Source of the DNA: a bacterium
GTDB lineage: Bacteria; UBA10199; 2-02-FULL-44-16; JAAZCA01
Direction: 5' to 3'
Assembly (NCBI GenBank): GCA_021810905.1
Contig: JAJZQH010000011.1
Span: 4,358 to 68,357 of the forward strand
DNA length: 64,000 nucleotides
Part shown: in pieces, positions 5,026 through 27,914 of the stretch
Layout: the number at the start of each line of letters is the position of its first letter
Numbering within the stretch: position 1 is the stretch's first letter
The notes under the pieces: generated by a model
The model's database searches: none
The model's input: only the letters and a program-made list of their open reading frames with translations
What the model was told of the DNA's origin: nothing
Translations under genes and position numbers: made by a program

Positions 5026-5030
5026 ACAAA

Positions 5031-8266: not shown

Positions 8267-8531
8267 TATAATTATCTTGAAATGCGACGTGGACGATTAC
8301 TCAATTATTGCTCCATACTCTTTCTGGATTCAATGAATAGCAATAAACGTACCAACACTTAAATCGGCACAAGTATCTAATTTATCGGACTTCTCTCAAA
8401 ATAGTTGCTAACTTTCCGTGTTCGGGATGTTGAAATTCGGAACAGATAGTGTTCGTGAATCGGAATGGATTAAGTGCGCCCTCGGACCGCGCATGCGCCT
8501 CCAGTCGACCTTGCCTATCATTGCAATTGCA

Positions 8532-9830
8532 TTACCTCACCAGAATCTCCACGCGCCTGTTGCGGGCGCGGCCCTCGGTTGTCTTGTTGGAATCAAGAGG
8601 CGCGGTCTCGCCGAGGGATTCGACGTTAATATGAACTGCATCTACGCCTTGCCTTGACATCCTTTCGGCCACCGTCTCAGCGCGGCGTCTTCCAAGCCGT
8701 TCGTTATAAGATGCGGAGCCGATCGAATCCGTATGGCCGCGGACGGTCGCATTCAAATCTTCATCCGAGGCCATCGTCGCGGCTATCTTATCAACCTCTG
8801 AGGCTGCTGCTTCCGAAAGTTGTGAGTCGCCAAAATTGAAGAATATGAGTTCGCTGATCTCTTGATCTATTTTTTCAGCCTTCTCCCGATGAGATTCGCG
8901 CCAGCGGCGGCCGGCGTCGAATGAGATCGATGCGAATGCATGCCAGGACGGCGAGCCGAGCGCGTCCGTAACGCCGCGGCCTCCCCCTGCCTGCAGGGCA
9001 ATGCCGTTCGAAAATCTCTTCTGCACGCCGCCTCGCGCAATGACAGGTGTGGTGATCTCGCGCACGTTTTTCACGACCGTATCGCCTTCCACGTCGGCAA
9101 AAAGATCCCAGGATTTCTTTTGAAGGGGCAGAGTATATTGAACTCCGGCCCCGAAGGTCACTCGATCGTCGTCACTGAGATTCCATGAAGCGCCGGTGAC
9201 GTTGTTTCTCACCTGAGTCTCCGCAGCAATCCGATAGCCCGCGTTTGCAACGATATACACGGGTTTGAAACTCTTATCCGCGATAAGCCGGAATTCGCCG
9301 GTGGGGGCGCTCCATCCCGTGAAGCGGCCGGGATCGCCGGTCGGAAGCGTGAGCCGCGCGAGAAAACCGAGGCCTGCGCTTCCCTTTGCGTCCTTGAAGG
9401 CAAAGGCCTTTGCATCGATGATGAGATCTCCGACGCCGGTTTGCGTGAATCCATTCTGCATGTTCACATTCATGCCGCGCTCGTAAAAGACGACGGGCAC
9501 GGTCAGTCCGAAATCCAGGCGCTCGCCCACGCCGATAGCAGCCGACAAATCTCCCTCTATAACTTTATCGACGATCTTTGCCGCGGCGTTGTTCACCGGA
9601 TTGCCCGCTTCGATGAGCGCGCCCATTCCCTGCAGCGTAAAGCGCGCCGCGGGTTTGAGATGTCCCGGCGTCTGCGTGCCGTAGATGGAGTAGACACCGC
9701 TGCCGTCCGCAGTTGGATGGAACGTCAGTACGTTGAAACCGTCTAGGCCCGTATCCTGAGCCGCCGCACAAAACGGCAGCAGAAAGACCAGGGCGAATAC
9801 GGCTGTGCATAATAATATTGAGACTCGCAT
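8532..9830 (-). CDS. OmpA-family outer-membrane protein (N-terminal beta-barrel region plus C-terminal OmpA-like peptidoglycan-binding domain)
   Basis: The C-terminus TVRGHTDSIGSASYNERLGRRRAETVAERM...NVESLGETAPLDSNKTTEGRARNRRVEILV is the OmpA_C-like motif. I placed the start at the internal ATG 9830 (MRVSILLCTAVFALVFLLPFCAAAQ signal peptide) rather than the ORF-track start at 9902. Confidence 0.8.
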   Translation of the reverse strand: MRVSILLCTAVFALVFLLPFCAAAQDTGLDGFNVLTFHPTADGSGVYSIYGTQTPGHLKPAARFTLQGMGALIEAGNPVNNAAAKIVDKVIEGDLSAAIGVGERLDFGLTVPVVFYERGMNVNMQNGFTQTGVGDLIIDAKAFAFKDAKGSAGLGFLARLTLPTGDPGRFTGWSAPTGEFRLIADKSFKPVYIVANAGYRIAAETQVRNNVTGASWNLSDDDRVTFGAGVQYTLPLQKKSWDLFADVEGDTVVKNVREITTPVIARGGVQKRFSNGIALQAGGGRGVTDALGSPSWHAFASISFDAGRRWRESHREKAEKIDQEISELIFFNFGDSQLSEAAASEVDKIAATMASDEDLNATVRGHTDSIGSASYNERLGRRRAETVAERMSRQGVDAVHINVESLGETAPLDSNKTTEGRARNRRVEILVR

Positions 9831-9851
9831 AAGCAATAAACACTGAGTTTT

Positions 9852-9939
9852 CCTCCCCTTTGTAAGGGGAGGTTGGGAGAGGTAGACCATGGATGCACTC
9901 AAGATCTACCTCCCCTTTCCCCTCCTTACAAAGGAGGGG
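9852..9939. repeat. nested palindromic element: two inverted copies of a CCTCCCC...GGGGAGG hairpin flanking an imperfect central palindrome
   Basis: The first hairpin is cctcccctttgtaaggggagg (9852-9872). The second is cccctccttacaaaggagggg (9919-9939). Between them gaggtagacc...gatctacctc forms an imperfect palindrome. The element lies between the giant-protein stop at 9947 and the ompA-like start. Confidence 0.5.
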
Positions 9940-9946
9940 AAGTGCA

Positions 9947-12900
9947 TTAACGCATCGGCTCCGGAATCAGCGTGCATCCGCCGCCACCGCCGCCGCCATC
10001 AAAGCCCGTGGGATTCGTATCGTCCAGGGGATTGTTGGGATCGGTTTCGCCCGGATCGACGCGGCCGTTCAGATTTTTGTCCTCCTGAGGATCGGTCAGG
10101 CCTCCGCCGTCCGTATCTGCCTTGGTCATGTTGGTGACCGTTGCCGGATCGCTGTCAAAGACGAGATTGCCCGCTGCATCGTCGGTACTCTTGATCGGGC
10201 CCTCGCCGTCAGGATCGTCTGCCGCGGCAGCCACACCAACCTCAAGCCCGTCATTGAGTCCGTCATTATCGCTGTCCGGATCGAGGGCATTGATGAACCC
10301 GTCTCCATCGGAATCCGCGAGAGCGGCCGTTTCCCTGCCATCGATCACGCCGTCGTCGTCGCTGTCGACATCATATGGATCAGTGCCTGCTTCGATCTCT
10401 ATGTCGTCCGAAAGCCCGTCGCCGTCGCTGTCCATGGCGGACTGGCTGAACGGAATGCCGCCGCTTGACGCCTCGTACGCACCAAGCTCCAGGGCCTCCA
10501 CGAGCCGGGAGAGCTCCGCCCGCACGGGCGCGATCTTCTCCGCATCGAGCACGACCAGTTTGTCAAACGCGTCGAGCGCCTTTGAAATCTTCTCATCGAA
10601 TCCCGCGCTGACCGCTCCATCCCATCCACTCAGGATATCCTGGAGCATAGCCTTTGCACCATCGCTCGCTGCCGCATCTGTTCTCAACCCGTCGATCAGC
10701 GCGCGGCAGTTCGCCCACTGATCGCTCCAGGTGGATGAAATTTCCTGTTTGAAACTGCTGGTCGTCGTGTCGGTAAGGCCGCCCAGCCACGAAGTAGTGA
10801 GAGTCAGAGGTAACTCGATCGTTTCGTCGTCCAAAGGCAGGCGCAGGAAATAGACAAATTTTTCTTCCTCATTCCGTATGAGCTCTGCGCTCCACGACGC
10901 GTTCGCCTGCGAAAGGTCTGCGCCAGCGGTCCCCACTAACGCGGCACGCGCGGGCACGGCAACCGATGCCGAGGCGTTTGCAGGCCGGTCACGCGTTGCG
11001 ACTTTTACTGCGAACGAGATCACTTCCCCCGGCGAAGGAGTCTCTTCAGCAGGAAGCAATCGACCGAAGAGTTCATCCCACGTTTCGCCCCAGCTCTTTA
11101 CCTCGGACGAGCCAGCGGCCGCGGTCGCATAGGCCGAATCCCAGCCATTCATGGGAAGACCGACGAGCAGCGCCGAGCCCTTGCCGAATGTTTTTTTTGC
11201 GACAACCGTCGAATCATCAGCGCTAAATAGCGGCTCGACGTTTCCGTCAAAGGAGAACAGCGGAGACAGAGTCAGAGTCGGCAATTCACTCGCATCGCCG
11301 GCGGCTCTCACCAGGCGCGTGGCGCCACCCTGCGGAACCGCATTGACGCCGCCGAGATTGCTCCACAACTTGTCCCACGCGACCCCCGTAACGCTCACGG
11401 CGCTCTGCAGCAACATCAGGGAGTCGCCGTTGTAGATGCGCGCGGCAAGTTCGCGCATCAAACCGTCCACGAATTCAGTGCCGTCAAAATGATACCCGCT
11501 TCCGGCGCTCGCGAATGCGAAGACGTTGAAGGCGTCGCTCCGCATGGCGTTCAGGAATTCCTGCTGATCCGCGACTACCTTGAATGGCCAACCGCGTTCC
11601 GCGCAGAGCGATTGAATGGAGCGCACGTCATCGAGATCGGCCGGCACAATTTCGGGCCGTGAGGCGTCCGCCAGCGCGAGCATGAGGATGCGCGGCGCCT
11701 GCGAGAGGGTCATACTGCTATCGAGGACGAGAAGATCGAGCAGCTGTTTGTGTTCGGGCTCGGGGTGCCCCAGCAGATCCGTGCTTCGGTAGAATACGGA
11801 ATGCTCTCCAGCAGCGAGATTTCGAAGCGCGAACGGAATCGAATACGGTTGCCACGCGCCGGCGTCTATTCTGTATTCGGTCGACTTGAGGCCCACGATG
11901 TCGTCATGTGCGTTGAGGCGGATTTGCGTGGATGGAGTTGCGAGTTGTTCCTCGCCCGCAACCTCCTGACTCTTCTCGATCGTGGTGACCGGCGGGCTGT
12001 TGTCGACCGTGAGCGGATAAGCAAGCTCGCGGCGGTTCTCAAAATCGTCCACCGCGAAATAGCGGATGAGATGATTGCCCTCTTCATCAATATTGAACTG
12101 CGGGAGCGAAAGTTCCGCCGTACCGCCGGACGTGGCCGTCACGGGCGCACCGGAATCTAGGCGATATTCCAGATAGACGATGTCGTCGGCTCCGCTTGTC
12201 GCCTTGATTCGGATAGGCGTCGTGTGATCGACGAAGAGAGTTGCCGCGTTGCGATATTGCGGCAGTCCGACATCCAACGTGACATTCGGCGGACTGCCGT
12301 GCAGCACGAAGTTCACATCGCGCTTGTCTTCCGCGTTCGCAACGCGATCCACGGACCAGTATCTGCCGGTGTGTTCTCCGTCGCCGATGTCGCCGAGAGA
12401 AAATGAGTTCAACGCATGATACGTGATCGAAGGACTCGTAACCTGAAAGTTCGCATCCGCAACGCCTGCGCCCTGATCCGCCGCTGTCATCTTGAGGAAC
12501 GTCGCAGAGCCGGACCAGTGCGCCTTGCCGTCGATCGTGCGCTGCACGCCCTGGATATCGAGCTGGCTCGAGGGCGGATCGAGGTCCACGGATACCGCTT
12601 TCTGCCGCGCATCTTCCGTGTTGCCCACCGAATCGACGGCCCTGTGTGAGACGGAATGGGCGCCCGCGGCCGCTATGCCGAACGGAGCTGCAAAGCGCTG
12701 CCAGTCCGCGCCGTCGAGCTGATAATCTATGTGGTCCACGTCGCTCGCCATGTCCGAAGCCGAAAGCGCTATCTTCGTCACGCCGCTTATCCAGCTCACG
12801 CCGCCGGCATCGTCGTACGACGGACCGACGAAGCTGAGCCTGGATGCAGGAGGCCTGCGATCCAGGATGAGTTCACCACTCTGCGGGGCCGAGGAATTGC

Positions 12901-15900
12901 CCGCCGAGTCCGTTACCACGATTGTATAATGATACCGGCCGTCGAATGCCCTCGCGTCCGAGAGATTGGCGCCGTTCCATGCGAGCTGACGCTCGACCGG
13001 CGGAAGTGAGGCGACCTGCGATACGGAGGCTATGAGCGCCTGACCTGCAAACACGGAGAGCTGGGCCGCGACGTCCTGCATCGCGACGTTATCATCGACT
13101 CGATAACCGATCTTCGCCTCGCCGTTCTGTGCAAGCACCCCGGTCACGGCGACGGATGGCGCCGCGGTATCCACTATGACCATACCCTCAAACGGCGCGG
13201 CCGCTGCGCCACGCGCATCTGCGATCACGAGTCGCCATGCGTGTTCTCCATCGGTGACGAGCTGGCCGCCGGACTTGCCGTCCCACGAGATCGCCAACTC
13301 CCCCGCAGGCAATTCCTGCGATTGCACGAGCGCTCCATCGACGATGAGCTCCGCACGAACGCGCTCGCCGAAAGCTCCGCTGACCTTGACGCGCCATGCA
13401 GTCTCATCCTTGACGCCGTCGCCGTTCGGAGAGAACGAGGAAGGACTCGAGAGAAGCGCAACCGCGGGCGCTGCCGCGTCAAAGCGCAGATGCATATGCT
13501 GTGGCGATTCGGCGTTGCCGACCCTGTCGATCGCCCTAACCTCGAGTTCGGCGATTCCGGCGCCGGAATCATTCACCGCGAACGGACCGCCATAGGGCAT
13601 CCACGTACCGCCGTCCACGGAATATTCAATCCGGTCGAGCCCTGCGGGCATGAGGCCGCCGTCCTCAGCAGCGCAGCTGAACCGTGTATCTGCGGCGACA
13701 TATTCGTCGTCGCCCGATTTTTCATGGCTGCCGGAGATCGCGATGTTCGTCGTCGGAGGAGTTCGATCGAAGACCACGGGCTCGCTGTGCACGGATTCCG
13801 TGAGACCGTAATAATCGATGCCGAAGAATTCGATTTCGTAGACCCCTTCCTCAAAACCTTCGAGCGTAAACGGTGCGTTGAAGAGTTGATAATCCTTGTC
13901 GTTCACCCGATAGCGCATCTGGTAGACCGGCGCCGAGCCGTCGGCAGGCACGATGTTGAGAGGAGTTGCCGGGCCGATCCACTGCTGATGCCCGTCCGTA
14001 TAATGTGGATCGTCGATATCAAAGCGCGTGACGATTCCTGCGCCCTGGCCTGGCTGGTTCGGATCGATGATCGTAATAAACACCGTCTGCTCGGGCTCTT
14101 CATTGCCCTGGTCGTCCTTTGCAGAGCATGAGAAAGAATGTCGGCCTGGCGGCATCTGCGCGAGATCGATCAGCCCCTGGTATGGCTGATACTGTTCCTC
14201 ATCCCAGCGATAGCGGATCTCCGTGACGACGCTGCCGCGATCCGCCGCGTCTTCCGCTATGAGCATGATCTGGCTCGCGGGCGGAACGACCGCAAGCGAG
14301 CCGGGTTCCACGAGCTGCTCGTTCACCACGACTTGAGTCACGGGCGCCCGGCTGTCGACATAGACGCGCACAGACGCGCTCGCCTCTTTGCCGCTCTGCG
14401 TTCTGGCGTTCGCCTCGATCTGATACCAGCCTTGAGTTGCGCCTGGCGTCCACTCGACGTCGAACGGCGAGGTCGTTGATGACGATATCGCCTGCGCACT
14501 CCCGCCTTCTGGCGCCGCGGTGACGGAGAGGCTCTCGATCCCATCCGAAGGATCGACGCCGCCGAGCGAACCGGTGATATGCACGACGCCGCGCACCACG
14601 CTGTCCGCGGCCGGCGCGTCAATCGTCAGTCGCGGATAACCGTCATCTTCGCGCATGATCAGATAGCGCGAGAAGTGATTGAGCATGCCGGAGATACGGA
14701 AGATATCGTCCGACGATCCGGGCGTGCCGCGATCGTCCCACGTGTTGATCGTCGCAAGCTGCTCGAGCTCACCATCGTCTTTAAGATTGTAGATCGCCAT
14801 CACGGGAGGATCGTTCGCAGTGATGCCATAAACGCGATCCTTCACCTCCTGCGGATCATTTGCATAGAGCGCCTCTACTTCATCCCGCGTAAAATAGACT
14901 TCCAGCTGTGGCTGATACGTCGGATTCAACGCGATATCGTCCGGCTTGATCTCGACGATCGGCCCTATCGGATTGATGCCCGAAGGGAGATAGAGGCCCG
15001 GAGTGTCGGTCGGTATTGGAATCACGGTCACGAGTTCGTTGATGGAAGAATCGCATGGGAATGGACCGTTCGCTGGGCACAGGCTGTATTCGTCGAAATA
15101 GATTGAATAACGCCGCCAAGGTGAACTCACCACGGCAGGCGCATTGGCCTTAACGAGCGAACCGATGGAGACGTTCATCGTGTCCTCGCTCTTCAAAGCC
15201 CCGTTCGCGTCGGTCGCGCGCAGCATTACCGTATATTCGTGCCCGTTCAAGCGAGAGACGTCCCACCACGCGAGAGTATTGTTTTGCGCGCCCTGCCCTT
15301 CAGCTATCCTCTGCCAGGAATTCGTCTTCGGTTCAAAATAGCGAAGCTCCCACGCTTCGCCGCCCACCGCCCCCCTGATCTCGATGAAGCGCTTCGGAGC
15401 GGCATCCGGCTTGAGCTTCAATTTGAATGAGTCGTTCACGTTCTTATTGCTCTCGGAAACGCCGTCGCCGTCCACGTCGCTCGTTCCATTCGAATTGACG
15501 AGCATATCCGTGAGCATGAAGGAATCGTTCACGCTTCCATCGGGATAGCGAAGATCGATGGTCCACTCGTTCACGTGTGCAACGTCCGAGAACGTGTAGA
15601 GCGTGGGCGAATCTTTCACGGGTTGATTATACCTGGGATGCCCCGCATAGAGCGAAAATGGCCCGCTGATCGTCTTGAACGGCGCCTGAGTATCTTCCTC
15701 TATTCCCCGCGAGAGGCACCGCCGGGATTGATTGTCGACCGCGGTATTCAAACCTCCATTGATATACTTCGCTCCGTTGAAGATGCAGGCGGACGATGCC
15801 AGATATGGATCTGCATTCGTCGTAAAACCGTCGGGAATGAGATCAGCGTAGAGCTTCGGTGAAAGATATTGCCGCTCATCTATAGGACCATTCGCGTCGC

Positions 15901-18900: not shown

Positions 18901-19627
18901 CGACCACGAGCTCGGGTTTCTCGTCGGCGTTCACGTCGATTGAGGCTGCACCGCCCTTGAAAGTCTGGGCGTTGAGAGATGCAAAGGCATGGTGCGATCC
19001 GTCCGCTTCCCACTCTACGATCTCGCCGCCGGCCTGATCCACGGCGTAGAGAGAGGACCTCCCGTCATTGTCCAGATCCGCCGCAGCGAGCCACGGCGCC
19101 GCGTTAAAATCCGCGTCATATGCGTCGAGCTTGGTGAATCCCGCGGCGTGACGAAAGACAAAGACCTTGCCGGACGTCGTTGTGAAGACCAGCTCAAGCC
19201 TGTTGTCTCCATTGATGTCGGAGATGATCGGCATAGCGGCGATGGAACCCACGCCCTGCGGGAATGCGAAACGCCACGTCGTGAGCTCCGTGCCGTCGCC
19301 GCGCAGCACGCGCATCTGTTCGGCGCCGCCCGCTGACGCGAGCACGAGGACGATCTCGAGCTTTGCGTCGCGATTCACGTCCACCAACCGCGTCATGGGC
19401 CGCGCCTTGAGGCCCTCATCAAGAAAATTTACGACCGGCCAGCCGGAGATGGCCTCGCCCTTTCGATCCCACGCATAGACCCGTCCGTCCCGCGAGACGC
19501 TAACGCGCTCGATGGCGTAAGAGTCATCGATATTGCCGGCGGAGATGCGGGCATGGGCATAGCCGGCGGCAGCGCACAGGGCCGCTATCAAAAAAGATAC
19601 GCCGGCGATTTTAGTTCTCACGTTCAT
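9947..19627 (-). CDS. giant secreted surface protein (about 3,226 aa): N-terminal FG-GAP beta-propeller repeats, many Ig/Fn3-like beta-sandwich repeats, C-terminal thrombospondin type-3 Ca-binding repeats
   Basis: The signal peptide is MNVRTKIAGVSFLIAALCAAAGYAHA, from the ATG at 19627. The ORF track starts at a GTG at 19642 that overlaps the upstream stop. FG-GAP-like units include DINGDNRLELVF, DLDNDGRSSLYAV, DVNADEKPELVV and DIDLDMEPEIVV. Several roughly 100-aa units share Y-x-x-DGG-x-W-x-Y...G-x-H-x-V-x-YRS-x-D-x-x-GN-E. The C-terminus DSDGDGLSDD...DSDDDGVIDG...DSDGDGFINALDPDSDNDGLNDG is TSP3-like. The protein ends GGGGGGGCTLIPEPMR. Confidence 0.8.
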   Translation of the reverse strand: MNVRTKIAGVSFLIAALCAAAGYAHARISAGNIDDSYAIERVSVSRDGRVYAWDRKGEAISGWPVVNFLDEGLKARPMTRLVDVNRDAKLEIVLVLASAGGAEQMRVLRGDGTELTTWRFAFPQGVGSIAAMPIISDINGDNRLELVFTTTSGKVFVFRHAAGFTKLDAYDADFNAAPWLAAADLDNDGRSSLYAVDQAGGEIVEWEADGSHHAFASLNAQTFKGGAASIDVNADEKPELVVGTSAPELLAFDRNGDVVARFPLPAVPAARPLIADIDLDMEPEIVVLLADRTVYSVHRDGTSVRRWDWHLPYEAESSLDAGVVAFDLYEGLISSISGWDSSSVYKTSRERFAELTLGENVHVYDRILAEMEMPITQIDEVVAQPKVITPNADGYNDDAMLSYILSTDAVVTVDLLDAAGNELFRVVENAHQSAGANSVRADGVNTHGTVTRNDDEPLAKGLYFLRITAMNDLGLASRATTPLIVFGVRAQIDLPTDPNRDDGAYPVVYGVTGIEGIATDPNIGEGNDNFDFLAYKVYYRPGIWKVDEATALAAGEAGSPWLTVPVPLQHQSPINSANEPADAVYPASNVSVRPVQHGLLARWDTTDSARTPNGLYTILLKVVDGNGNAVGRVNFDSLVVDLRSVAQGTPYDPNDPSTDPNDPENIGPKLSNVNASPANISTQSPESVISYALANETSNVNVTIYKVAGGQIGPVAASFSMGATAPGSYSFAWNGKDNVNKRVDVGDYRARVTATAVDGTGGDTKTTSDIHMTVATEYNAGLAILGFALSSDVFDPFNMITDANGNDVQAETLTASYNLNRYAKLNVGVYDEDGALVRTLIDGNVDKIGAVSWNGASDQGVVVPSGKTYTVKIKAQCIDAGCTDVVEKNESVAVRALSIGGGGLYADVTMLVGEGDESSTDPDVIAGTLRDDDDPLNDFPLNGSSDFKWRAYGSGTIRVPFTYEISARGTELIEQNMPLETVVTPENVPLNTIEDLGDGYGCRTQDFRLMPDYVPVSNLFFDSGYTVTSYRISSVNVPDNVTMLLRTPLGERSVTAPFDIAEQPAAASDSLSIGVGLVGRPSGHNGISAADQTFLVNNCSHGQDLSLCHSYGYEHTPENTLFPTFCPNGPITICGSWYEWNYGNVVAPVTCGSVRIRANASRLLSQPWGPYVIGGNSIIDSVTDPVLVAEYNGATSSGQSYIVSSVVSSYGLTFTPSINGVAWTQTASYGTIAVGNAVRAWLGDANGPIDERQYLSPKLYADLIPDGFTTNADPYLASSACIFNGAKYINGGLNTAVDNQSRRCLSRGIEEDTQAPFKTISGPFSLYAGHPRYNQPVKDSPTLYTFSDVAHVNEWTIDLRYPDGSVNDSFMLTDMLVNSNGTSDVDGDGVSESNKNVNDSFKLKLKPDAAPKRFIEIRGAVGGEAWELRYFEPKTNSWQRIAEGQGAQNNTLAWWDVSRLNGHEYTVMLRATDANGALKSEDTMNVSIGSLVKANAPAVVSSPWRRYSIYFDEYSLCPANGPFPCDSSINELVTVIPIPTDTPGLYLPSGINPIGPIVEIKPDDIALNPTYQPQLEVYFTRDEVEALYANDPQEVKDRVYGITANDPPVMAIYNLKDDGELEQLATINTWDDRGTPGSSDDIFRISGMLNHFSRYLIMREDDGYPRLTIDAPAADSVVRGVVHITGSLGGVDPSDGIESLSVTAAPEGGSAQAISSSTTSPFDVEWTPGATQGWYQIEANARTQSGKEASASVRVYVDSRAPVTQVVVNEQLVEPGSLAVVPPASQIMLIAEDAADRGSVVTEIRYRWDEEQYQPYQGLIDLAQMPPGRHSFSCSAKDDQGNEEPEQTVFITIIDPNQPGQGAGIVTRFDIDDPHYTDGHQQWIGPATPLNIVPADGSAPVYQMRYRVNDKDYQLFNAPFTLEGFEEGVYEIEFFGIDYYGLTESVHSEPVVFDRTPPTTNIAISGSHEKSGDDEYVAADTRFSCAAEDGGLMPAGLDRIEYSVDGGTWMPYGGPFAVNDSGAGIAELEVRAIDRVGNAESPQHMHLRFDAAAPAVALLSSPSSFSPNGDGVKDETAWRVKVSGAFGERVRAELIVDGALVQSQELPAGELAISWDGKSGGQLVTDGEHAWRLVIADARGAAAAPFEGMVIVDTAAPSVAVTGVLAQNGEAKIGYRVDDNVAMQDVAAQLSVFAGQALIASVSQVASLPPVERQLAWNGANLSDARAFDGRYHYTIVVTDSAGNSSAPQSGELILDRRPPASRLSFVGPSYDDAGGVSWISGVTKIALSASDMASDVDHIDYQLDGADWQRFAAPFGIAAAGAHSVSHRAVDSVGNTEDARQKAVSVDLDPPSSQLDIQGVQRTIDGKAHWSGSATFLKMTAADQGAGVADANFQVTSPSITYHALNSFSLGDIGDGEHTGRYWSVDRVANAEDKRDVNFVLHGSPPNVTLDVGLPQYRNAATLFVDHTTPIRIKATSGADDIVYLEYRLDSGAPVTATSGGTAELSLPQFNIDEEGNHLIRYFAVDDFENRRELAYPLTVDNSPPVTTIEKSQEVAGEEQLATPSTQIRLNAHDDIVGLKSTEYRIDAGAWQPYSIPFALRNLAAGEHSVFYRSTDLLGHPEPEHKQLLDLLVLDSSMTLSQAPRILMLALADASRPEIVPADLDDVRSIQSLCAERGWPFKVVADQQEFLNAMRSDAFNVFAFASAGSGYHFDGTEFVDGLMRELAARIYNGDSLMLLQSAVSVTGVAWDKLWSNLGGVNAVPQGGATRLVRAAGDASELPTLTLSPLFSFDGNVEPLFSADDSTVVAKKTFGKGSALLVGLPMNGWDSAYATAAAGSSEVKSWGETWDELFGRLLPAEETPSPGEVISFAVKVATRDRPANASASVAVPARAALVGTAGADLSQANASWSAELIRNEEEKFVYFLRLPLDDETIELPLTLTTSWLGGLTDTTTSSFKQEISSTWSDQWANCRALIDGLRTDAAASDGAKAMLQDILSGWDGAVSAGFDEKISKALDAFDKLVVLDAEKIAPVRAELSRLVEALELGAYEASSGGIPFSQSAMDSDGDGLSDDIEIEAGTDPYDVDSDDDGVIDGRETAALADSDGDGFINALDPDSDNDGLNDGLEVGVAAAADDPDGEGPIKSTDDAAGNLVFDSDPATVTNMTKADTDGGGLTDPQEDKNLNGRVDPGETDPNNPLDDTNPTGFDGGGGGGGCTLIPEPMR
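9950..10430 (-). other. thrombospondin type-3-like DxDxDG calcium-binding repeat region at the C-terminus of the giant protein
   Basis: Tandem D-x-D-x-D-G-x-x-D motifs are present. The antisense ORF 10122..10721 shows the mirrored SPS/LSL low complexity. Confidence 0.6.
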
Positions 19628-19638
19628 GAGTCGCTCGT

Positions 19639-22600
19639 TCACTGCGCTTCGAGATACGCGTTGATCAAACTCATATCGACCTGCCGGATCTTTTCGTTCC
19701 AGATAACCGTCAGATAGCGGTCGTCGCCGGAGATAATGACTGACGTCGGATCCTCCGATCCATTCTCATCATCATCATCTTTACAAGATGAATAGGGGAT
19801 CTCATCCTGTTGTTCCCCGCCAAAATACACACCTATATTGCAGTAATGCAGCACATAGTATCGCTCTGCACGTGAAGAAGGATAGGCTTGAAAATCCTTG
19901 AGCTGGCTGATATTCGACAGATCCAGGGCATAGACTCGATTCTCTACCCATATCTCATCACGCACAAGATGCGGCAAAATTGACCAATAACTGCTTACCC
20001 AATCTTCAGCCAATTTCGAAATCGAGCCGTTATCTTCAAACCGATAGACAGCAAGCTCGCCACCTTTTGCAGCTACAGCGATCCGTCGATCGGCACGGAA
20101 AGCCATGACCGGATGTCTTTCTGATGAGTAATAAAAATCCAATCCGCATGAACAATCGACGGACATATCCGAACGATCGAGAACGCAGACGTCGGACGAT
20201 TCCTTCCAAATCATAAGGACCTTCTGTCCTGGGCCGCTGGCGAGATCGGCCACCGTATCCACGTTCGGATGCGTGGTCTGACCCTGCAGCGTGCCATCTG
20301 GCGCCACCACTGTAATAACGTTGCCCTTTGCCGTGATAACAGTCCCATCCGGCGCGACGTCAAACGTGTCCGCTGCGGTTGGAAGCGGCTTCGGCGTAAT
20401 AAAATCCTTGCCGCTTATGGAATAGATCTGGAGCTCAATTCCCGGCTTGAAGAGCATGTAGACGTGATCCGTCACTGGATCATGAACCACCTTGAGCAGA
20501 TCGGCCTCTGAATAAGGAAGCGATGTGATCCATACATCCGGCATGTCGTCAAAAAGAAAAGTTGGGTTCCATCCCGACTGAAGCGAATAAATCCCCTCAA
20601 TCTCTATCGTGCTGTTCTTACAGTAAGCAGAAATCGTCACTTCAATTTCGTTTTCCGACTTAAATTCCACTGGAAGATTGTAACCATAGCACCCGGCAAA
20701 ATGTGCTTCCGTATCTTCAGTGAAGTTAAACCCTCTTATCCGAACTTTGGTTCCTATATTGCCGTTTAACGGATCTGCATTCGTAACGAGCGCATTATCA
20801 CCTCCGCCTTCCGCAACTTGTCCGATCAATGGCGTTGACAAGAGCGATGCGTCCCCCTCACGATTCAACATCAGGCTTGTCCTGTCCAAGGGTCTCATCT
20901 CGGCGTCTTCGATCCGAAGTTGCACCTTGCCGCTGTCAATGATCGACGATTCGTCAATCGTCACCTTCCCGTCAGTCGATAACCATGCACCTGATGCATT
21001 GGCTATCGCTTCATCGATCGGCATTTGATTGAATACGCTGATATCCTTGGCGGTCAGCATAAGGAGTGTCGCTCGATCAGCGTCGTACGTGTAAAAATTG
21101 TCCGCGCTCATCTGAATAGTTTCATTTCGGAAAAAATGCTTCAGAGGGATAACAAGCAGCATGCTGGTCGTGTTCTCTGCATTCCACATCGAGACATACG
21201 CGATCATACGCTGAGCATCGATTTTGATATAGCTATCCGACATAGAAACATTCTGATCGAAATTCGCTTCCGTGGGAGCCGCTGATGAACCGCCGCAGCC
21301 TGAAACAAGACACAATAATCCGACGACGGCCATGGGCGCACACGAACGCCTGGAAATACCACGCATTGCCGCCACGATCATGAGCACGATCACTCCGAAG
21401 GCGAACGACGCGCCGGCGCCGTATCCTGATCCTCCAACAAGTGCGCATCCGCCGCTGCCGGACGATGGCGGTTCATCTGCCAGCTGCGGCAATGCCTGCG
21501 GCGAGAACGGAGTTTCAGCGACATCTTCATCGCTCACCGGCAGGGGCGTCTGAAGATCGGTCGCATCGAAATTGCTGAATATTTTTGCGACGTCGATGAT
21601 TCCATATCCCCAGCGGTTGTCTGGGAAGACATCAACCACCCTTGAGTTGCGCGCAATGAGCGTCTCTATCTGCGATGTTGTGAGATCTGGCTTACGCTGG
21701 AGCATCAAGGCAATCGCTCCGGCAACGTGCGGCGATGCCATACTCGTGCCGGCCATCGCAACGAACCTCCGATCATTGTCAACGGCATAACCGGATCCGA
21801 CGAGCGAATTGATTGCATCGTAAGAAAGCGCGGAAATGATCATCTCGCCTGGAGCGGTGATTTCAGGCTTTTGCCCGGTGCGTGAGGAATCGCCAGATGG
21901 CCCTGGGCTGCTGAACGGCGAGAGAGAGTCTACGGGAGTAAAATCGCCTGAGATGCCGACGTCTCGCATGAGCGGCCATAAATCATCGCGTGTCGCAAAC
22001 GACGCCACGGAGATGACCTGCTGAGCTGTGGCGGGAATACCCACGGTGCGCCTGCTGTCGCCCGGACAATAACGATGACCTGACGACAGATAAACGCCGT
22101 CACGTTTAGTAAAATACGAGCCATATGCGGCCCACGCATCAAACGCGCCGCTTCCTGATGCGATCAGATCGAATGAATAATTATCGATGGATATATCGTT
22201 GCCTTCTGATGCTTCAATATAGAGGACTGTATGCTTTCTGCCGTTCTCGGGGTTCACGGTCTCCGTAGATTCAACCACGACATGGAGCCGTCCATCGTCC
22301 ATTTCGGAATCATAAATACTTCCTTCGGCTACGATACCGGTCTCTTCGTACGATCCATATTTATCCACGCCCAGACCAAACGTGAGCGCCGCGCCTTCAC
22401 GCTGCCATATATCGATCAACGCGTAGCTGCCGCCTGAGGACAAACCAAGGAACTCGAACCTGCATTCGTCCCCCTGCAGCTGCGTGGATGCGTGCACGCT
22501 CGCGATGACATCATCGCTATTACGGTTGTAGTTGCCGGCTGATGCGACTATGGCCCGGCCTGGAGCCTCGCTTATCTTCGCATCGAGCGCCTGCTCCAGC

Positions 22601-23487
22601 AACGACGTGCCGTCGTGCGCGCCATATTGCGTTCCGAGACTCATGTTGATCACGACCGGTTTGCCAGCCTGCGACGCCTTTCTCATTATATAATCGACGG
22701 CATCCACCAGGCTCGTAGAGAACGCACCCGACAATTCGCTCGCTATCTTGACAACAATCAGCTCGGCGCCTGGCGCCATGCCTTCGTATTGTTTGTCACG
22801 ACCGGCTGCGATCCCCGCCACATGAGTACCATGCCCGACTTCGTCCTTCGATGGACACGTCTTCTCCTCGATATCCTTGCGGAAACACTCGATGCCGTAG
22901 GTGCCCTCAATCTCCGAGGGTGCCGCGAATCCCTCTGCGGTCTCTATACCCTGATCCCATATTGAGATAATGCGTGAATTGCCGTCTGCGTCGTTGAACA
23001 CGGAATGGCGCCAGTCGATTCCCGTGTCGATGATCCCTATGATCACCCCCGTTCCATCATACGCAACTCCGTCGACCTGCCCGGCCTTCACCGCGGTCGC
23101 ACCTATAGCCGGGAGGCTCTTGTCGAGCATGGGCGCGAGCTGTTTGTCGGCCTCCGCGTATTCGATCTCACCGGATTTTGCCATCTGCTCCAGGAGCTCA
23201 ATAGATATCGTAACGGATGCGATCTCCTTGGCCACAACGCGAGCGTTGCCGCCGGAGGCATTGACGGCAGCGACTACGGCTTCAACATCACGAGCTTTCA
23301 CGAGGGCGCTGACGAAGCCATCGCGCGCGCCACTTGCCGCTTCTTTTCCGCTCCCCGCCAAATGCCGCTGCTGGCCAAGATACAAGACCGGGTCGATTGA
23401 GTTAGAGGCGCAGACCGAGAAAGATGCGGTCAACATCGCCACAGCGAGCACAATGCCGGATGTAAGCCTGTAGAGAGATGATTTCAT
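19639..23487 (-). CDS. S8 subtilisin-like peptidase (signal peptide, catalytic D/H/S). In the same frame it continues through an internal GC + TM + RRS sorting-signal-like segment and a second lipoprotein-like module with an IPT/TIG-like domain
   Basis: The catalytic triad motifs are IGIIDTGIDWRH (Asp), HGTHVAGIAAG (His) and GTSMASPHVAGAIALM (Ser). The signal peptide MKSSLYRLTSGIVLAVAMLTASFSVCASN starts at the ATG at 23487, whereas the ORF track starts at 23559. Residues 743-1306 begin with MAVVGLLCLVSGCGG (lipobox) and contain NGNIGTKVRIRGFNFTEDTEAHFAGCYGYNLPVEF (IPT/TIG-like). The stop overlaps the start of the giant protein gene. Confidence 0.8.
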   Translation of the reverse strand: MKSSLYRLTSGIVLAVAMLTASFSVCASNSIDPVLYLGQQRHLAGSGKEAASGARDGFVSALVKARDVEAVVAAVNASGGNARVVAKEIASVTISIELLEQMAKSGEIEYAEADKQLAPMLDKSLPAIGATAVKAGQVDGVAYDGTGVIIGIIDTGIDWRHSVFNDADGNSRIISIWDQGIETAEGFAAPSEIEGTYGIECFRKDIEEKTCPSKDEVGHGTHVAGIAAGRDKQYEGMAPGAELIVVKIASELSGAFSTSLVDAVDYIMRKASQAGKPVVINMSLGTQYGAHDGTSLLEQALDAKISEAPGRAIVASAGNYNRNSDDVIASVHASTQLQGDECRFEFLGLSSGGSYALIDIWQREGAALTFGLGVDKYGSYEETGIVAEGSIYDSEMDDGRLHVVVESTETVNPENGRKHTVLYIEASEGNDISIDNYSFDLIASGSGAFDAWAAYGSYFTKRDGVYLSSGHRYCPGDSRRTVGIPATAQQVISVASFATRDDLWPLMRDVGISGDFTPVDSLSPFSSPGPSGDSSRTGQKPEITAPGEMIISALSYDAINSLVGSGYAVDNDRRFVAMAGTSMASPHVAGAIALMLQRKPDLTTSQIETLIARNSRVVDVFPDNRWGYGIIDVAKIFSNFDATDLQTPLPVSDEDVAETPFSPQALPQLADEPPSSGSGGCALVGGSGYGAGASFAFGVIVLMIVAAMRGISRRSCAPMAVVGLLCLVSGCGGSSAAPTEANFDQNVSMSDSYIKIDAQRMIAYVSMWNAENTTSMLLVIPLKHFFRNETIQMSADNFYTYDADRATLLMLTAKDISVFNQMPIDEAIANASGAWLSTDGKVTIDESSIIDSGKVQLRIEDAEMRPLDRTSLMLNREGDASLLSTPLIGQVAEGGGDNALVTNADPLNGNIGTKVRIRGFNFTEDTEAHFAGCYGYNLPVEFKSENEIEVTISAYCKNSTIEIEGIYSLQSGWNPTFLFDDMPDVWITSLPYSEADLLKVVHDPVTDHVYMLFKPGIELQIYSISGKDFITPKPLPTAADTFDVAPDGTVITAKGNVITVVAPDGTLQGQTTHPNVDTVADLASGPGQKVLMIWKESSDVCVLDRSDMSVDCSCGLDFYYSSERHPVMAFRADRRIAVAAKGGELAVYRFEDNGSISKLAEDWVSSYWSILPHLVRDEIWVENRVYALDLSNISQLKDFQAYPSSRAERYYVLHYCNIGVYFGGEQQDEIPYSSCKDDDDENGSEDPTSVIISGDDRYLTVIWNEKIRQVDMSLINAYLEAQ
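21340..21459 (-). other. internal tripartite sorting-signal-like segment (Gly-rich GC motif, hydrophobic helix, RRS), followed at 21333 by an in-frame ATG and lipoprotein signal
   Basis: SGSGGCALVGGSGYGAGASFAFGVIVLMIVAAMRGISRRS resembles PEP-CTERM, MYXO-CTERM or GlyGly-CTERM C-terminal anchors, which are common on S8 peptidases. I hand-verified the codons ggt att tcc agg cgt tcg tgt gcg ccc ATG gcc gtc gtc gga tta ttg. Confidence 0.5.
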
Positions 23488-23542: not shown

Positions 23543-24601
23543 CTATTTTTTGTTCTCACTCCCCTTCGGCTTCCACGTCGCCGCTGCCTTGTCGCCCAAT
23601 GTGGTCACGTAACTGAAGAACGGCTCCTTGAGTTCACCCTCCCCATAGAGACCTGCGTCCGGCATTTTGCAGTCCTTCATATTGTCCGCGATCGACTTCA
23701 TCCGATCGTCTATCCGCCGCGATCCTGACGAACGAATGATTTCAAATGAGACCTGCTCTCCTCGCTTGTTGTAATCGATTTTGGCCGTGACGTATTTTCC
23801 ACGGCTGTTGAGTTTTTTATTTTCCTGCTTTCCGAAACTGGCAGCCTCGCATTCTTCGAGAACGTTCATCGCCTCATAGAGTTTACTTGCCGAGGGTTTC
23901 TCTTCCTGCTTTCCGACATAAAAGTCATAGGTCTTTGCCTCAGGGTCGTCTTTCGACCTGTCATGCCCCTTGAGGGTCTCTGCGAATCCGACCTGACCAT
24001 CAAGAAGCAGGTGTGCCAACGCTCCCGCCGCGAGGTTTTTCTTTATGATCTTTACGCCCAGATCGACGCCGTCGAGATCCTTGATACGAATCTTTCGAAG
24101 TTTTTTGTCCCTGAGATCGAGATATACGATACCATAATAATCGGTGGCAGGTTCAAGTTGGCGAACATAGAATATCTCGTTCGTTCTTATCGGCCTGTGC
24201 AAAACCTGCCTGCCGTATTTAGCATCAAGTGCAGCGCTCATCCTGAGCCCGTCATTCTCGACGGTCTTGCCCGCGACAGAACCTGCAACGCGTTGTACGT
24301 GCGGATATACATGCACGGCATGCAGATTCCTGTCTCCATCAGATACGATGTCAACATGCTCCACTGAAACCGCATCGCTCCCTACGTTCCGAACCATCAC
24401 CCCAACCGGCAGAAAATGACGCCATTCTCGATACAGCTGAAATTTTTTGCGTTCCTCTTTGGCTGAATACGGATGAACGGAAACGATGGCGCCGACTTCC
24501 GGTAGTTCGACAACCGATTTCATGAAATCATCGGCAAACGATTGTTTTGTCATTGCAAACGCCACCATCATTCCGATCAACAACATGCTCAAGCGTTTCA
24601 T
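23543..24601 (-). CDS. secreted hypothetical protein with a C-terminal TonB-C-like domain
   Basis: The signal peptide is MKRLSMLLIGMMVAFAMTKQSFA. The C-terminus KYVTAKIDYNKRGEQVSFEIIRSSGSRRIDDRMKSIADNMKDCKMPDAG follows the TonB_C pattern (G.V.v.f.v...SSG...lD.aA...v). Confidence 0.4.
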   Translation of the reverse strand: MKRLSMLLIGMMVAFAMTKQSFADDFMKSVVELPEVGAIVSVHPYSAKEERKKFQLYREWRHFLPVGVMVRNVGSDAVSVEHVDIVSDGDRNLHAVHVYPHVQRVAGSVAGKTVENDGLRMSAALDAKYGRQVLHRPIRTNEIFYVRQLEPATDYYGIVYLDLRDKKLRKIRIKDLDGVDLGVKIIKKNLAAGALAHLLLDGQVGFAETLKGHDRSKDDPEAKTYDFYVGKQEEKPSASKLYEAMNVLEECEAASFGKQENKKLNSRGKYVTAKIDYNKRGEQVSFEIIRSSGSRRIDDRMKSIADNMKDCKMPDAGLYGEGELKEPFFSYVTTLGDKAAATWKPKGSENKK

Positions 24602-26027: not shown

Positions 26028-26073
26028 ACCTGACTCGTTATGTTAAGGCAATTTTTTATTAAGAAATTGGCAA

Positions 26074-26445: not shown

Positions 26446-26478
26446 ATACCCTCCTTTGATGTAATTTGGCGAAATTCA

Positions 26479-27579: not shown

Positions 27580-27598
27580 TTTCTAACTAGACAGCCAT

Positions 27599-27889: not shown

Positions 27890-27914
27890 GATTTAATGAT
27901 AATCAATTAATTAG

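What the first reader, a model, noticed from the sequence alone, without database searches (positions are those of the whole stretch)
8532..23487. Three-gene operon S8 peptidase - about 3,200-aa FG-GAP/Ig/TSP3 surface protein - OmpA-like protein with overlapping stop/start codons
The peptidase stop TGA overlaps a GTG of the giant gene, and an ATG lies 12 nt downstream. The giant protein ends in TSP3 Ca-binding repeats, a module usually found on OmpA-like proteins, and the next gene is an OmpA-family protein. This suggests a dedicated protease, adhesin and outer-membrane anchor unit. A second S8 peptidase with FG-GAP repeats sits at 1-2748.
Basis: partly seen in the sequence, partly recalled or inferred. 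Interest (0 to 1): 0.5.

Follow-up and report, generated by a model that had tools for sequence, protein, structure and literature searches.

The report
Conserved protease–giant adhesin–barrel surface module
This is a real, conserved gene cluster for a giant cell-surface protein, its outer-membrane barrel partner and a subtilisin-type protease, built around a cysteine-containing sorting tag like the one myxobacteria use, with two unusual twists: a protease fused in frame to a lipoprotein, and a tag cut down to a short tail.

Summary
The three ORFs exist as described, all on the minus strand: S8 peptidase 23487-19639, 3,226-aa FG-GAP/Ig/TSP3 protein 19627-9947, and barrel+OmpA protein 9830-8532. 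The GTG/TGA overlap is real but trivial. The likely giant start is the ATG 11 nt downstream, and there is no overlap at the giant/OmpA junction.

The order peptidase-giant-barrel/OmpA recurs in four independent metagenomic lineages (giants 31-71% identical), usually after a fourth conserved gene (24601-23543). So the cluster is a real unit.

Three points were missed:
- **Peptidase fusion.** The ORF is S8 domain + Cys sorting tag (GGC681, TM, RRS) + lipoprotein signal (VSG-C731) + a sandwich/IPT/propeller domain. All eight fused homologs checked keep this hairpin. The C-domain also exists as free-standing lipoproteins.
- **Giant's tail.** The giant ends in the same GGC-x-L motif. One ortholog keeps the full tag. 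Five of six related loci keep only a short tail with no TM segment.

The closest known systems are TraA/TraB and the MXAN_5598 fusion of Myxococcus. I rate it a new variant of a known kind. Processing and function are inferred.

The parts
23543..24601 (-). Conserved upstream gene, 352 aa. It has a signal peptide and no known domain. Probably the first gene of the unit.
   Evidence: Homologs sit directly upstream of the peptidase in L003 (27% id, E=3e-36) and L007 (29%, E=8e-21), but not in L006/L010. No Pfam or NCBIfam hit. A strong SD (GGAGG) precedes the ATG. The gap to the peptidase start is 28-55 nt.
19639..23487 (-). Peptidase-lipoprotein fusion ORF, 1,282 aa. The source annotation uses an in-frame ATG at 23514, giving 1,291 aa.
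   Evidence: ORF. A 100% identical protein, P0001, lies on a 143.5-kb contig. Full-length homologs of 1,267-1,307 aa exist at 33-51% identity.
21568..23070 (-). S8 (subtilase) catalytic region, about aa 140-640, with a large insertion between His and Ser.
   Evidence: Pfam PF00082 E=1.7e-45. D154 (DTGID), H219 (HGTHV), N319 and S582 (GTSMA) are present and nearly invariant in the alignment.
21343..21459 (-). Internal Cys-containing tripartite sorting tag: GSGG-C681-ALVG..., a hydrophobic helix at about 691-708, and a basic cluster R709-R714.
   Evidence: C681 is invariant in 13 aligned sequences. The same tag is the extreme C-terminus of the ~715-aa stand-alone paralogs. Hydropathy shows only three hydrophobic segments in the ORF. 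Regex tabulation.
21295..21363 (-). Internal lipoprotein-type signal. The basic cluster serves as n-region, the h-region is C716-G730, and the lipobox is V-S-G-C731 followed by GGSS.
   Evidence: Conserved in all eight fused homologs matched by pattern; a ninth fused hit, P0248, did not match the pattern. Stand-alone homologs of the downstream domain begin with N-terminal lipoprotein signal peptides whose Cys aligns with C731.
19642..21297 (-). C-terminal lipoprotein-like domain (aa 731-1282): beta-sandwich, then an IPT-like Ig domain, then a beta-propeller.
   Evidence: AlphaFold2 model has mean pLDDT 80.6. Foldseek matches IPT+propeller surface lipoproteins BT_3476/BACOVA_00264 and Leptospira Lp49. 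No Pfam hit.
9947..19627 (-). Giant secreted surface protein, 3,226 aa. In order: signal peptide, FG-GAP propeller (~60-330), CHU_C-like and FlgD_ig domains (385-880), an unassigned stretch (880-1650), Big/OmpL47-type domains (~1665-2620), an unassigned stretch (2620-3040), TSP3 repeats (3060-3206).
   Evidence: Orthologs are 71% (L006), 57% (L003) and 31% (L007) identical over nearly the full length.
9950..9997 (-). C-terminal tail GGGGGGG-C3218-TLIPEPMR. It carries the signature motif of the sorting tag but no TM helix or basic cluster.
   Evidence: The L003 ortholog has the full tag (GGGC-KLYSDQSGDGRSLQSTLVMLISIAIAILI-KRRSGYRC*). L006, L007, L011 and L012 have short tails CSLIPEHKR*, CQLIR*, CSLMRQ* and CSLVMQ*.
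9850..9941 (.). A 92-nt imperfect palindrome in the giant/OmpA intergenic region. As RNA it forms three hairpins that enclose an SD-like GGAGG and the TTG 9902 and ATG 9890 start candidates.
   Evidence: Inverted repeats. MFE -63.3 kcal/mol, z=-7.4. Unique in the window. No Rfam family. The first hairpin plus GGAGG(G)TAGATC(G)TTG is conserved in L006.
8532..9830 (-). Outer-membrane protein, 432 aa from ATG 9830. In order: signal peptide, conserved N-terminal segment, 12-stranded barrel (aa ~60-305), linker helix, OmpA peptidoglycan-binding domain (aa 325-431).
8348..8371 (-). Terminator-like hairpin with a T-rich tail, about 160 nt downstream of the OmpA-like stop. Possible end of the transcription unit.
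   Evidence: Consensus scan only. Weak evidence.

Best explanation
A conserved cell-surface module, probably one operon of four genes, built around a cysteine-type C-terminal sorting signal of the MYXO-CTERM class.

All four products are Sec-exported.

**Giant protein.** The FG-GAP/Ig/OmpL47/TSP3 protein is a Ca-binding adhesin-like surface protein.

**Barrel partner.** It works with the next gene's product, a 12-stranded FapF/COG4313-class outer-membrane barrel tied to peptidoglycan by an OmpA domain. This matches TraA with TraB in Myxococcus.

**Peptidase ORF.** It is a two-in-one precursor:
- The S8 domain is exported.
- The tag helix stops transfer.
- The Arg cluster stays in the cytoplasm and doubles as the n-region of a lipoprotein signal.
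- That signal restarts export of the sandwich/IPT/propeller domain.
- Lgt/Lsp cleavage at C731 would free that domain as a lipoprotein.
- A myxosortase-like (CPBP) enzyme encoded elsewhere would process the S8 domain at C681.

The result would be a surface-tethered protease that matures or sheds the giant protein.

**Shown:** gene order conservation, domain content, the conserved tag and lipobox hairpin, free-standing lipoprotein homologs, and the barrel fold class.

**Inferred:** co-transcription, both cleavages, lipidation, the protease's substrate, and the adhesin role.
For: - Gene order is conserved in four lineages, with giants 31-71% identical.
- Intergenic gaps are short, and terminator-like sites are no more frequent than in shuffles.
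- The tag plus lipoprotein-signal hairpin is kept in all eight fused homologs matched by pattern, down to 33% identity.
- The same tag ends the ~715-aa stand-alone paralogs; 23 of 120 S8 homologs have such a tag.
- The C-domain profile finds free-standing 585-652-aa proteins that all begin with lipoprotein signal peptides, with the Cys aligned to C731.
- The L003 giant ortholog carries the full tripartite tag, and its ORF overlaps the barrel gene by 7 nt.
- The giant's TSP3 end is most similar to Myxococcota proteins ending in canonical MYXO-CTERM.
- Published precedent: TraA (tag) and TraB (barrel+OmpA) with overlapping ORFs, the MXAN_5598 internal-tag fusion, and MrtX cleavage requiring the Cys (PMC11980579).
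- P0419 shows the same arrangement of tag followed by a signal peptide and then a Phenol_MetA_deg barrel.
- The S8 catalytic residues are intact.
Against: - In this window, and in four of five other loci, the large protein keeps only the Cys motif with no TM or Arg cluster. It therefore cannot be a standard substrate of a membrane-embedded sortase.
- No CPBP/Rce1-like gene or T2SS gene was found among the ORFs of the 64-kb window that were scanned against Pfam (the larger ones).
- The tags score with no curated C-terminal sorting model. There was no TIGR03901 hit; JDVT-CTERM gave E=0.8 and Loki-CTERM E=0.4.
- The strongly structured RNA between the giant and barrel genes could uncouple their expression.
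- More distant barrel homologs occur with no peptidase or alone.
- No expression or protein data exist.
Confidence: 0.55

Rival explanations
1. Dedicated outer-membrane secretion route. The barrel+OmpA protein is not just an anchor. It is a FapF-like polypeptide channel that exports, or threads and holds, the large protein. The short C-terminal GGC-x-L tail is its docking or secretion signal, and Ca-driven folding of TSP3 repeats outside acts as a ratchet. The peptidase plays the role that the periplasmic protease FapD plays for FapF, or SphB1 plays for FHA.
For: - FapF moves unfolded polypeptides and needs a periplasmic protease (PMC5557850).
- The barrel gene directly follows a large secreted protein in six of the seven loci where the upstream end can be read. 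L011 and L012 large proteins share nothing detectable with the window giant except the tail.
Against: - The same Cys motif occurs as part of a full TM+Arg tag on the L003 giant and on every peptidase. That fits inner-membrane sorting better than an OM signal.
- MYXO-CTERM proteins use the T2SS in Myxococcus (PMC11980579).
- FapF's coiled-coil domain and Fap partners are absent.
- A 12-stranded barrel exporting a 3,226-aa multidomain protein without a POTRA or BAM-like helper is unproven.
- Fold class does not prove transport.
Confidence: 0.25
2. The peptidase ORF is not processed into two proteins. The two hydrophobic segments form a permanent inner-membrane hairpin that holds both the S8 domain and the propeller domain in the periplasm as one bitopic protein. 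The Cys and lipobox are relics of the gene fusion.
For: - The hairpin has two hydrophobic segments flanking a basic loop, the classic topology of a stable membrane hairpin.
- NCBIfam NF058595 ('lipo-invert' C-terminal anchoring domain) gives weak hits across this region (E=0.027 for aa 696-740 and E=0.0042 for P0241, both below cutoff). This hints at a described anchoring module.
Against: - Relic motifs would not stay intact. The tag Cys, the lipobox Cys and the G/S-rich stretch after it are kept in all eight fused homologs matched by pattern, down to 33% identity.
- Free-standing homologs are clear lipoproteins.
Confidence: 0.15
3. The genes are merely neighbours in a variable region rich in Rhs toxins and mobile elements. 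Each acts independently: a general secreted protease, an unrelated adhesin, and a general OmpA-type envelope protein.
For: - Stand-alone paralogs of the peptidase lie in housekeeping contexts.
- Distant barrel homologs stand alone.
- Rhs genes and an IS200-like transposase are nearby.
Against: - The same order persists in four lineages at 31-71% identity, with tight spacing.
- The peptidase and the giant share the Cys motif.
- The fused peptidase form was seen only in these loci: at all four loci where its context could be read, it sits next to a giant gene.
Confidence: 0.05

Closest known systems
TraA/TraB outer-membrane-exchange pair and the MXAN_5598 fusion of Myxococcus xanthus; MYXO-CTERM sorting by myxosortase MrtX (PMC11980579; Haft bioRxiv 10.1101/2023.06.07.544157)
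   Same: - A large surface protein ends in a Cys-containing tripartite tag and is followed at once by a gene for an OM barrel plus OmpA domain. ORFs overlap in L003 as in traAB.
- An internal tag arises from gene fusion, followed by a second export signal. This is seen in MXAN_5598, in P0419, and here in the peptidase.
- TSP3 repeats and a Gly-rich linker lie just before the Cys.
   Different: - The tags score with no MYXO-CTERM model and have a single Cys (GGC-x-L) rather than GCGC.
- The host is an unclassified MAG, not shown to be Myxococcota.
- The giant has no TraA-type PA14 or Cys-rich repeats.
- The barrel scores 69 bits against a TraB cutoff of 700.
- The fusion partner here is a lipoprotein (SPII signal), and the tagged protein is a protease.
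- Most giants have a tail without TM or Arg.
- No myxosortase gene is in the window.
FapF/FapD functional-amyloid secretion system of Pseudomonas, and the COG4313 channels (PMC5557850; PDB 5o65, 4rl8)
   Different: - There is no N-terminal coiled coil; a C-terminal OmpA domain is present instead.
- The client is a 3,226-aa folded-domain protein, not small amyloid subunits.
- The protease is S8, not C39.
- No FapA-E homologs are present.
FhaB/FhaC/SphB1 of Bordetella and LapA/LapG of Pseudomonas (from my own knowledge, not checked here)
   Same: The logic of a giant adhesin, an outer-membrane barrel partner, and a dedicated protease that matures or releases it. SphB1 is also a surface-anchored S8 lipoprotein.
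   Different: - No TPS domain, POTRA/Omp85 barrel, T1SS genes or RTX repeats are present.
- SphB1 is an autotransporter and is not fused to a second lipoprotein.
- LapG is a cysteine protease.
Surface lipoproteins with IPT plus beta-propeller (Bacteroides BT_3476/BACOVA_00264; Leptospira Lp49)
   Same: The predicted fold of the peptidase C-domain matches (Foldseek E about 1e-11). Like them it is a lipoprotein in its free-standing form.
   Different: Fold-level resemblance only (7-12% identity). Here it carries an extra N-terminal sandwich and is encoded in frame behind a protease.

Membership tests
Peptidase S8 (subtilase) | Pfam PF00082 above the gathering score, plus an Asp-His-Ser triad with the oxyanion Asn | tested here: met
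   156 bits against a cutoff of 21.8. D154, H219, N319 and S582 lie in the canonical motifs and are conserved in the alignment.
MYXO-CTERM (TIGR03901) sorting domain | The curated HMM scores above its cutoff | tested here: not met
   No TIGR03901 hit for the peptidase, the giant, the isolated tag, the L003 giant tail or six paralogs, even at E<=10. HMMER filters may hide very weak matches.
MYXO-CTERM / Cys-type tripartite sorting signals (class) | A signature motif with an invariant Cys, then a TM helix, then an Arg-rich cluster | tested here: met
   Met for the peptidase (GGC681, helix 691-708, RGISRRS), for the ~715-aa paralogs and for the L003 giant.
MYXO-CTERM / Cys-type tripartite sorting signals (class) | The same tripartite signal on the giant protein of this window | tested here: not met
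   The giant ends GGGC-TLIPEPMR* with no TM or basic cluster, and no frame downstream encodes one.
MYXO-CTERM / Cys-type tripartite sorting signals (class) | The signal lies at the extreme C-terminus | tested here: not met
   In the peptidase the tag is internal (aa 677-715 of 1,282). Precedent for internal tags exists (MXAN_5598, PMC11980579).
MYXO-CTERM / Cys-type tripartite sorting signals (class) | A cognate CPBP/Rce1-family sorting protease (myxosortase) in the genome | not testable with these tools
   No PF02517-type hit among the window ORFs that were scanned, which were the larger ones only. The rest of the 143.5-kb contig and the genome could not be read.
Bacterial lipoprotein (SPII) signal | A basic n-region, a hydrophobic h-region, and a lipobox [LVI][ASTVI][GAS]-C | tested here: met
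   R709-R714, C716-G730, then V-S-G-C731 followed by GGSS. Equivalent motifs are in all eight fused homologs matched by pattern. Pattern check only; no predictor was run.
Bacterial lipoprotein (SPII) signal | The signal lies at the N-terminus of the precursor | tested here: not met
   It is internal here. Free-standing homologs P0241, P0242, P0243, P0246, P0263, P0273 and P0299 have it at the N-terminus.
TraB (NF033763) | The equivalog HMM scores above its cutoff | tested here: not met
   69 bits against a cutoff of 700, and the best stretch is only the OmpA domain. The architecture (barrel plus OmpA) is shared.
FapF / COG4313 (Pfam Phenol_MetA_deg) barrels | Pfam PF13557 above the gathering score, and a 12-stranded barrel fold | tested here: met
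Fap amyloid secretion system | The FapF N-terminal coiled coil, and FapA-E partners in the operon | tested here: not met
   There is no coiled-coil segment before the barrel in the model. Neighbouring genes are unrelated to Fap components.
OmpA C-terminal (peptidoglycan-binding) domain | Pfam PF00691 above its cutoff, and the Pal/OprF fold | tested here: met
Two-partner secretion (TpsA/TpsB) | A TPS (haemagglutination activity) domain at the N-terminus of the giant, and an Omp85/POTRA transporter | tested here: not met
   No such Pfam or NCBIfam hit in the giant or its neighbours. The barrel is 12-stranded, not Omp85.
T9SS cargo | A C-terminal CTD (Por_Secre_tail or CHU_C type) at the C-terminus | tested here: not met
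   The only hit is a weak CHU_C-like match at aa 385-470, which is internal.
T1SS RTX adhesin with LapG-type control | RTX repeats, a C-terminal T1SS signal, and adjacent ABC/MFP/TolC genes | tested here: not met
   None were found in the window ORFs that were scanned.

The most novel reading that the evidence does not exclude
The TM-less C-terminal tail G-G-C-x-L-[IVM]-x(1-5) is a sorting or docking signal in its own right. It resembles CAAX, or an inverted lipobox. It would mark large surface proteins for a FapF-class 12-stranded barrel that carries an OmpA domain, defining an undescribed way to export or hold giant proteins at the outer membrane. The same tail also ends some S8 peptidases. 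Alongside this, a single ORF would yield two lipid-anchored proteins, one lipidated at its C-terminal Cys and one at its N-terminal Cys, from one membrane hairpin.
Probability: 0.2. Interest if true: 0.75.

Novelty: new variant of a known kind. Interest (0 to 1): 0.5.

Why it matters
Cys-type C-terminal sorting (MYXO-CTERM and myxosortase) was demonstrated experimentally only in 2025, and the lipidation step is still unknown.

This family offers natural test cases:
- A protease whose tag is followed in frame by a lipoprotein signal. The two Cys-directed pathways act on one precursor and can be compared directly.
- Matched orthologs of one giant protein, with the full tag in one lineage and only the Cys motif in others.

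The family also links a FapF-class barrel, so far tied to amyloid export, to giant adhesin-like proteins. That could bear on what TraB-type barrels do.

If the short tail proves functional, it would be a new surface-targeting signal.

Tried and rejected
- **Exact look-up of the OmpA-like protein from ATG 9830.** It found nothing because the source annotation starts at ATG 9890.
- **Genome and metagenome scans.** The genome-contig scan with the six-sequence C-domain alignment failed for lack of conserved stretches. With four sequences it found one MAG contig only. The metagenome scan found two contigs, both duplicates of loci already held. The system is therefore rare in these collections.
- **Taxonomy of the window.** It could not be established; cluster look-up gave no names.
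- **Curated C-terminal sorting models.** None match.
- **Is the L011/L012 lipoprotein homologous to the peptidase C-domain?** hhalign was not significant (Prob 0.4%). I make no claim.
- **Is the intergenic palindrome a REP element of the nearby IS200-like/RAYT gene?** That gene's flanking repeats (AGGTGCCAGGCACGT) are different, and the palindrome is unique in the window. Rejected.
- **Is the palindrome a known RNA family?** No Rfam match.
- **Terminator-like hairpin at 24781-24766.** It lies inside a called 78-aa ORF, so I do not use it as an operon boundary.
- **Other secretion classes.** TPS, T1SS/RTX and T9SS readings were rejected on missing defining features.
- **afdb50 fold library.** It was unavailable.
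- **Literature.** A search for internal lipoprotein signals or 'lipo-invert' found nothing relevant.

Full report
**What is in the sequence**

All three ORFs of the finding lie on the minus strand.
- **Peptidase.** It runs from ATG 23487 to the TGA at 19641-19639, 1,282 aa. The public annotation of the same contig uses an in-frame ATG at 23514.
- **Giant gene.** It runs from ATG 19627 to the TAA at 9949-9947, 3,226 aa.
- **OmpA-family gene.** It ends at 8532. It can start at TTG 9902, at ATG 9890 (source annotation) or at ATG 9830, which opens directly into a signal peptide.

The GTG that overlaps the peptidase stop (GTGA) exists. However, the ATG 11 nt downstream begins a clean signal peptide, and orthologous junctions have gaps of 6-26 nt with no overlap. 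I therefore treat the overlap as chance.

Between the giant and OmpA genes there is no overlap. A 92-nt imperfect palindrome sits there. As RNA it folds into three hairpins (-63.3 kcal/mol, z = -7.4) that enclose an SD-like GGAGG and two candidate start codons. It matches no Rfam family and is unique in the window. Its first hairpin plus GGAGG(G)TAGATC(G)TTG recurs in the orthologous locus L006.

**Domain content**

The peptidase has an S8 domain (E=1.7e-45) with D154, H219, N319 and S582 intact.

The giant protein reads in this order:
- a signal peptide;
- an FG-GAP propeller (E=7.7e-17);
- CHU_C-like and FlgD_ig Ig domains;
- a long unassigned stretch;
- Big-type and six OmpL47-type domains (E=8e-70);
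- a second unassigned stretch;
- TSP3 repeats;
- a run of seven Gly and the tail C-TLIPEPMR.

The third protein has a Phenol_MetA_deg barrel and an OmpA domain. The second S8/FG-GAP peptidase at 1-2748 is real, and it is itself a lipoprotein.

**Conservation of the gene set**

The window's peptidase is identical to a protein on a 143.5-kb metagenomic contig. Full-length homologs at 33-51% identity exist.

Where their contigs are long enough, the same order recurs: peptidase (986-1,293 aa), giant (3,003-3,255 aa), barrel/OmpA (428-452 aa). This holds for L003/L005/L017, for L006/L010/L018 and for L007. The giants are 57%, 71% and 31% identical to the window's over almost their whole length.

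A 352-aa secreted protein encoded just upstream (23543-24601) has homologs in the same position in L003 and L007. Consensus scans give no excess of terminator-like sites inside the unit.

The order is conserved and the unit is real, although transcription was not measured. The system is rare: one species-representative genome (an unclassified MAG) and two JGI contigs in the large collections.

**The peptidase ORF is two proteins joined by a membrane hairpin**

Apart from the N-terminal signal, the ORF has only two hydrophobic segments, back to back at 691-708 and 716-730. The sequence reads ...GSGG-C681-ALVGGSGYGAG-ASFAFGVIVLMIVAAM-RGISRRS-CAPMAVVGLLCLVSG-C731-GGSS....

The first half is a tripartite sorting tag: a Cys motif, a helix and a basic cluster. 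About 715-aa paralogs of the peptidase end exactly there with the same tag, and C681 is invariant across 13 aligned sequences. At least 23 of 120 S8 homologs carry such a tag.

The second half has the form of a lipoprotein signal. The basic cluster serves as n-region, followed by an h-region, the lipobox V-S-G-C and a G/S-rich start of the mature chain. All eight fused homologs matched by pattern, down to 33% identity, keep both halves. A ninth fused hit, P0248, did not match the pattern.

A profile of the region after C731, searched against 1.8 billion representatives, finds two kinds of protein:
- fused forms, where the match starts near residue 740-790;
- free-standing proteins of 585-652 aa, where the match starts near residue 21-85.

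Every free-standing one begins with a lipoprotein signal peptide whose Cys aligns with C731. So the C-domain belongs to a lipoprotein family, and the long ORF is a gene fusion that preserved both signals.

The AlphaFold2 model of this domain (pLDDT 80.6) shows a beta-sandwich, an IPT-like domain and a propeller. Its nearest solved folds are IPT+propeller surface lipoproteins of Bacteroides and Leptospira Lp49.

The simplest reading runs as follows:
1. The S8 domain is exported.
2. The tag helix stops transfer.
3. The Arg cluster stays inside the cytoplasm.
4. The second segment restarts export.
5. Lgt/Lsp releases the C-domain as a lipoprotein.

This processing is inferred, not shown.

**The giant protein carries the same motif, usually cut short**

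The L003 ortholog ends GGGGGGGC-KLYSDQSGDGRSLQSTLVMLISIAIAILI-KRRSGYRC*. This is a full tag, and its ORF overlaps the barrel gene by 7 nt. The window (CTLIPEPMR*), L006 (CSLIPEHKR*) and L007 (CQLIR*) stop a few residues after the Cys.

More distant full-length homologs of the barrel protein (33-34% identity) lie in L011 and L012. There they follow a 1,438-1,502-aa Ig-rich protein and a ~370-400-aa lipoprotein, with no peptidase. Those large proteins end GGC-SLMRQ* and GGC-SLVMQ*. They have no detectable similarity to the window giant, so the tail is the only shared feature.

Five S8 homologs also end in TM-less Cys tails, for example GCSLIRR* and GGGGGGCFIQTVR*. The short tail is therefore a recurrent, selected feature rather than an assembly artefact. 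No known pathway explains it. One further barrel homolog (L016) follows a gene without the tail, and more distant ones stand alone.

**The barrel**

The AlphaFold2 model (pLDDT 81.4) shows a barrel (about aa 60-305), a linker helix and an OmpA domain.
- Foldseek agrees.

FapF is a plugged 12-stranded barrel that moves unfolded polypeptides and needs the periplasmic protease FapD (PMC5557850). The 'anchor' may therefore also be a conduit or a socket for the tail.

**Comparison with known systems**

The Cys-type tripartite signals (MYXO-CTERM, JDVT-, Synerg-, CGP-CTERM) and their CPBP-family sorting proteases were defined by Haft (10.1101/2023.06.07.544157). MrtX cleavage of TraA, dependent on the Cys, was shown by Guo, Haft and Wall (PMC11980579).

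That paper also describes two relevant arrangements:
- TraA (tag) with TraB (barrel+OmpA), with overlapping ORFs.
- MXAN_5598, a fusion with an internal tag followed by a barrel and an OmpA domain.

The giant's TSP3 end is most similar to Myxococcota proteins that end in canonical MYXO-CTERM. P0419 shows TSP3, then tag, then RRRRR, then signal peptide, then Phenol_MetA_deg barrel. This is the same hairpin logic as in the peptidase.

The locus therefore works like the TraAB/MXAN_5598 kind, but membership is not established:
- No curated tag model scores.
- TraB's model scores far below its cutoff.
- No myxosortase gene is among the window ORFs I scanned.
- The host taxon is unknown.

The weak NCBIfam hits to NF058595 ('lipo-invert' anchoring domain) over the hairpin are below cutoff. 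I could find no description of that model.

**Verdict**

The interpretation (protease, adhesin, outer-membrane partner as one unit) is supported by conservation but needs revision in several respects:
- The unit probably has four genes.
- The peptidase ORF encodes two exported proteins.
- The link between the parts is a Cys sorting motif.
- The barrel is of the FapF class.

I rate it a new variant of a known kind, of moderate interest. The most interesting open point is the short Cys tail.

Noticed in passing
window 46965-47633 (+), repeats at 46804-46868 and 47836-47909: A 222-aa IS200-like Y1 transposase (Pfam E=1e-9). It is flanked by several copies of a 15-nt repeat, AGGTGCCAGGCACGT, in inverted orientation on its two sides. 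This is a RAYT/REP-like arrangement.
   Followed up: partly
window 24957-44817 (-); also L003 1-8084: A cluster of Rhs/YD-repeat toxin genes: 3,373 aa and 2,156 aa (the latter with a YkuD domain), plus two Rhs tip fragments, one carrying DUF4329, and small TM ORFs. A 3,384-aa Rhs gene also lies upstream of the orthologous triplet in L003.
   Followed up: partly
window 9826-9952 (-): The structured RNA between the giant and barrel genes hides the SD-like GGAGG and the TTG/ATG start candidates inside its middle hairpin. It could control barrel-protein translation or stabilise the upstream message. The true start of the barrel gene (9902, 9890 or 9830) is unresolved.
   Followed up: partly
P0027, P0031, P0032, P0034, P0060 (S8 homologs): Five S8 peptidases end in TM-less Cys tails: GCGCTTVAIQ*, GCSCNILDVL*, GCGCSLLN*, GCSLIRR* and GGGGGGCFIQTVR*. 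These resemble the giant's tail. Their gene contexts were not examined.
   Followed up: no
L011 8798-9994 and L012 8894-9997: A Cys-rich lipoprotein of ~370-400 aa with propeller-like repeats sits between the tail-bearing large protein and the barrel/OmpA gene. The two copies are 31% identical to each other. Homology to the peptidase C-domain was not significant by hhalign.
   Followed up: partly
window 4531-7193 (-); L016 1382-4873: A histidine kinase and a response regulator lie downstream of the barrel/OmpA gene in the window, after a 343-aa gene with no known domain. A similar pair lies downstream of a 37%-identical barrel homolog in L016. This may be a regulatory link.
   Followed up: no
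L007 628-3588 (P0006): In this lineage the fused peptidase is shorter (986 aa). It keeps the tag, the lipobox, the sandwich and the IPT domain but lacks the propeller. Its giant lacks the TSP3 repeats.
   Followed up: partly
L008 and L009 (P0014, P0018): The ~715-aa tagged S8 paralogs sit in a conserved housekeeping neighbourhood (serS, DsbA-like, MFS transporter, glnA). One of them comes from the same sequencing run (SRR13189623) as a copy of the window locus.
   Followed up: partly
window 1-2748 (-): The second S8 peptidase has an N-terminal lipoprotein signal (LYAGC-GGSGGS) and C-terminal FG-GAP repeats. It is cut off by the window edge.
   Followed up: partly
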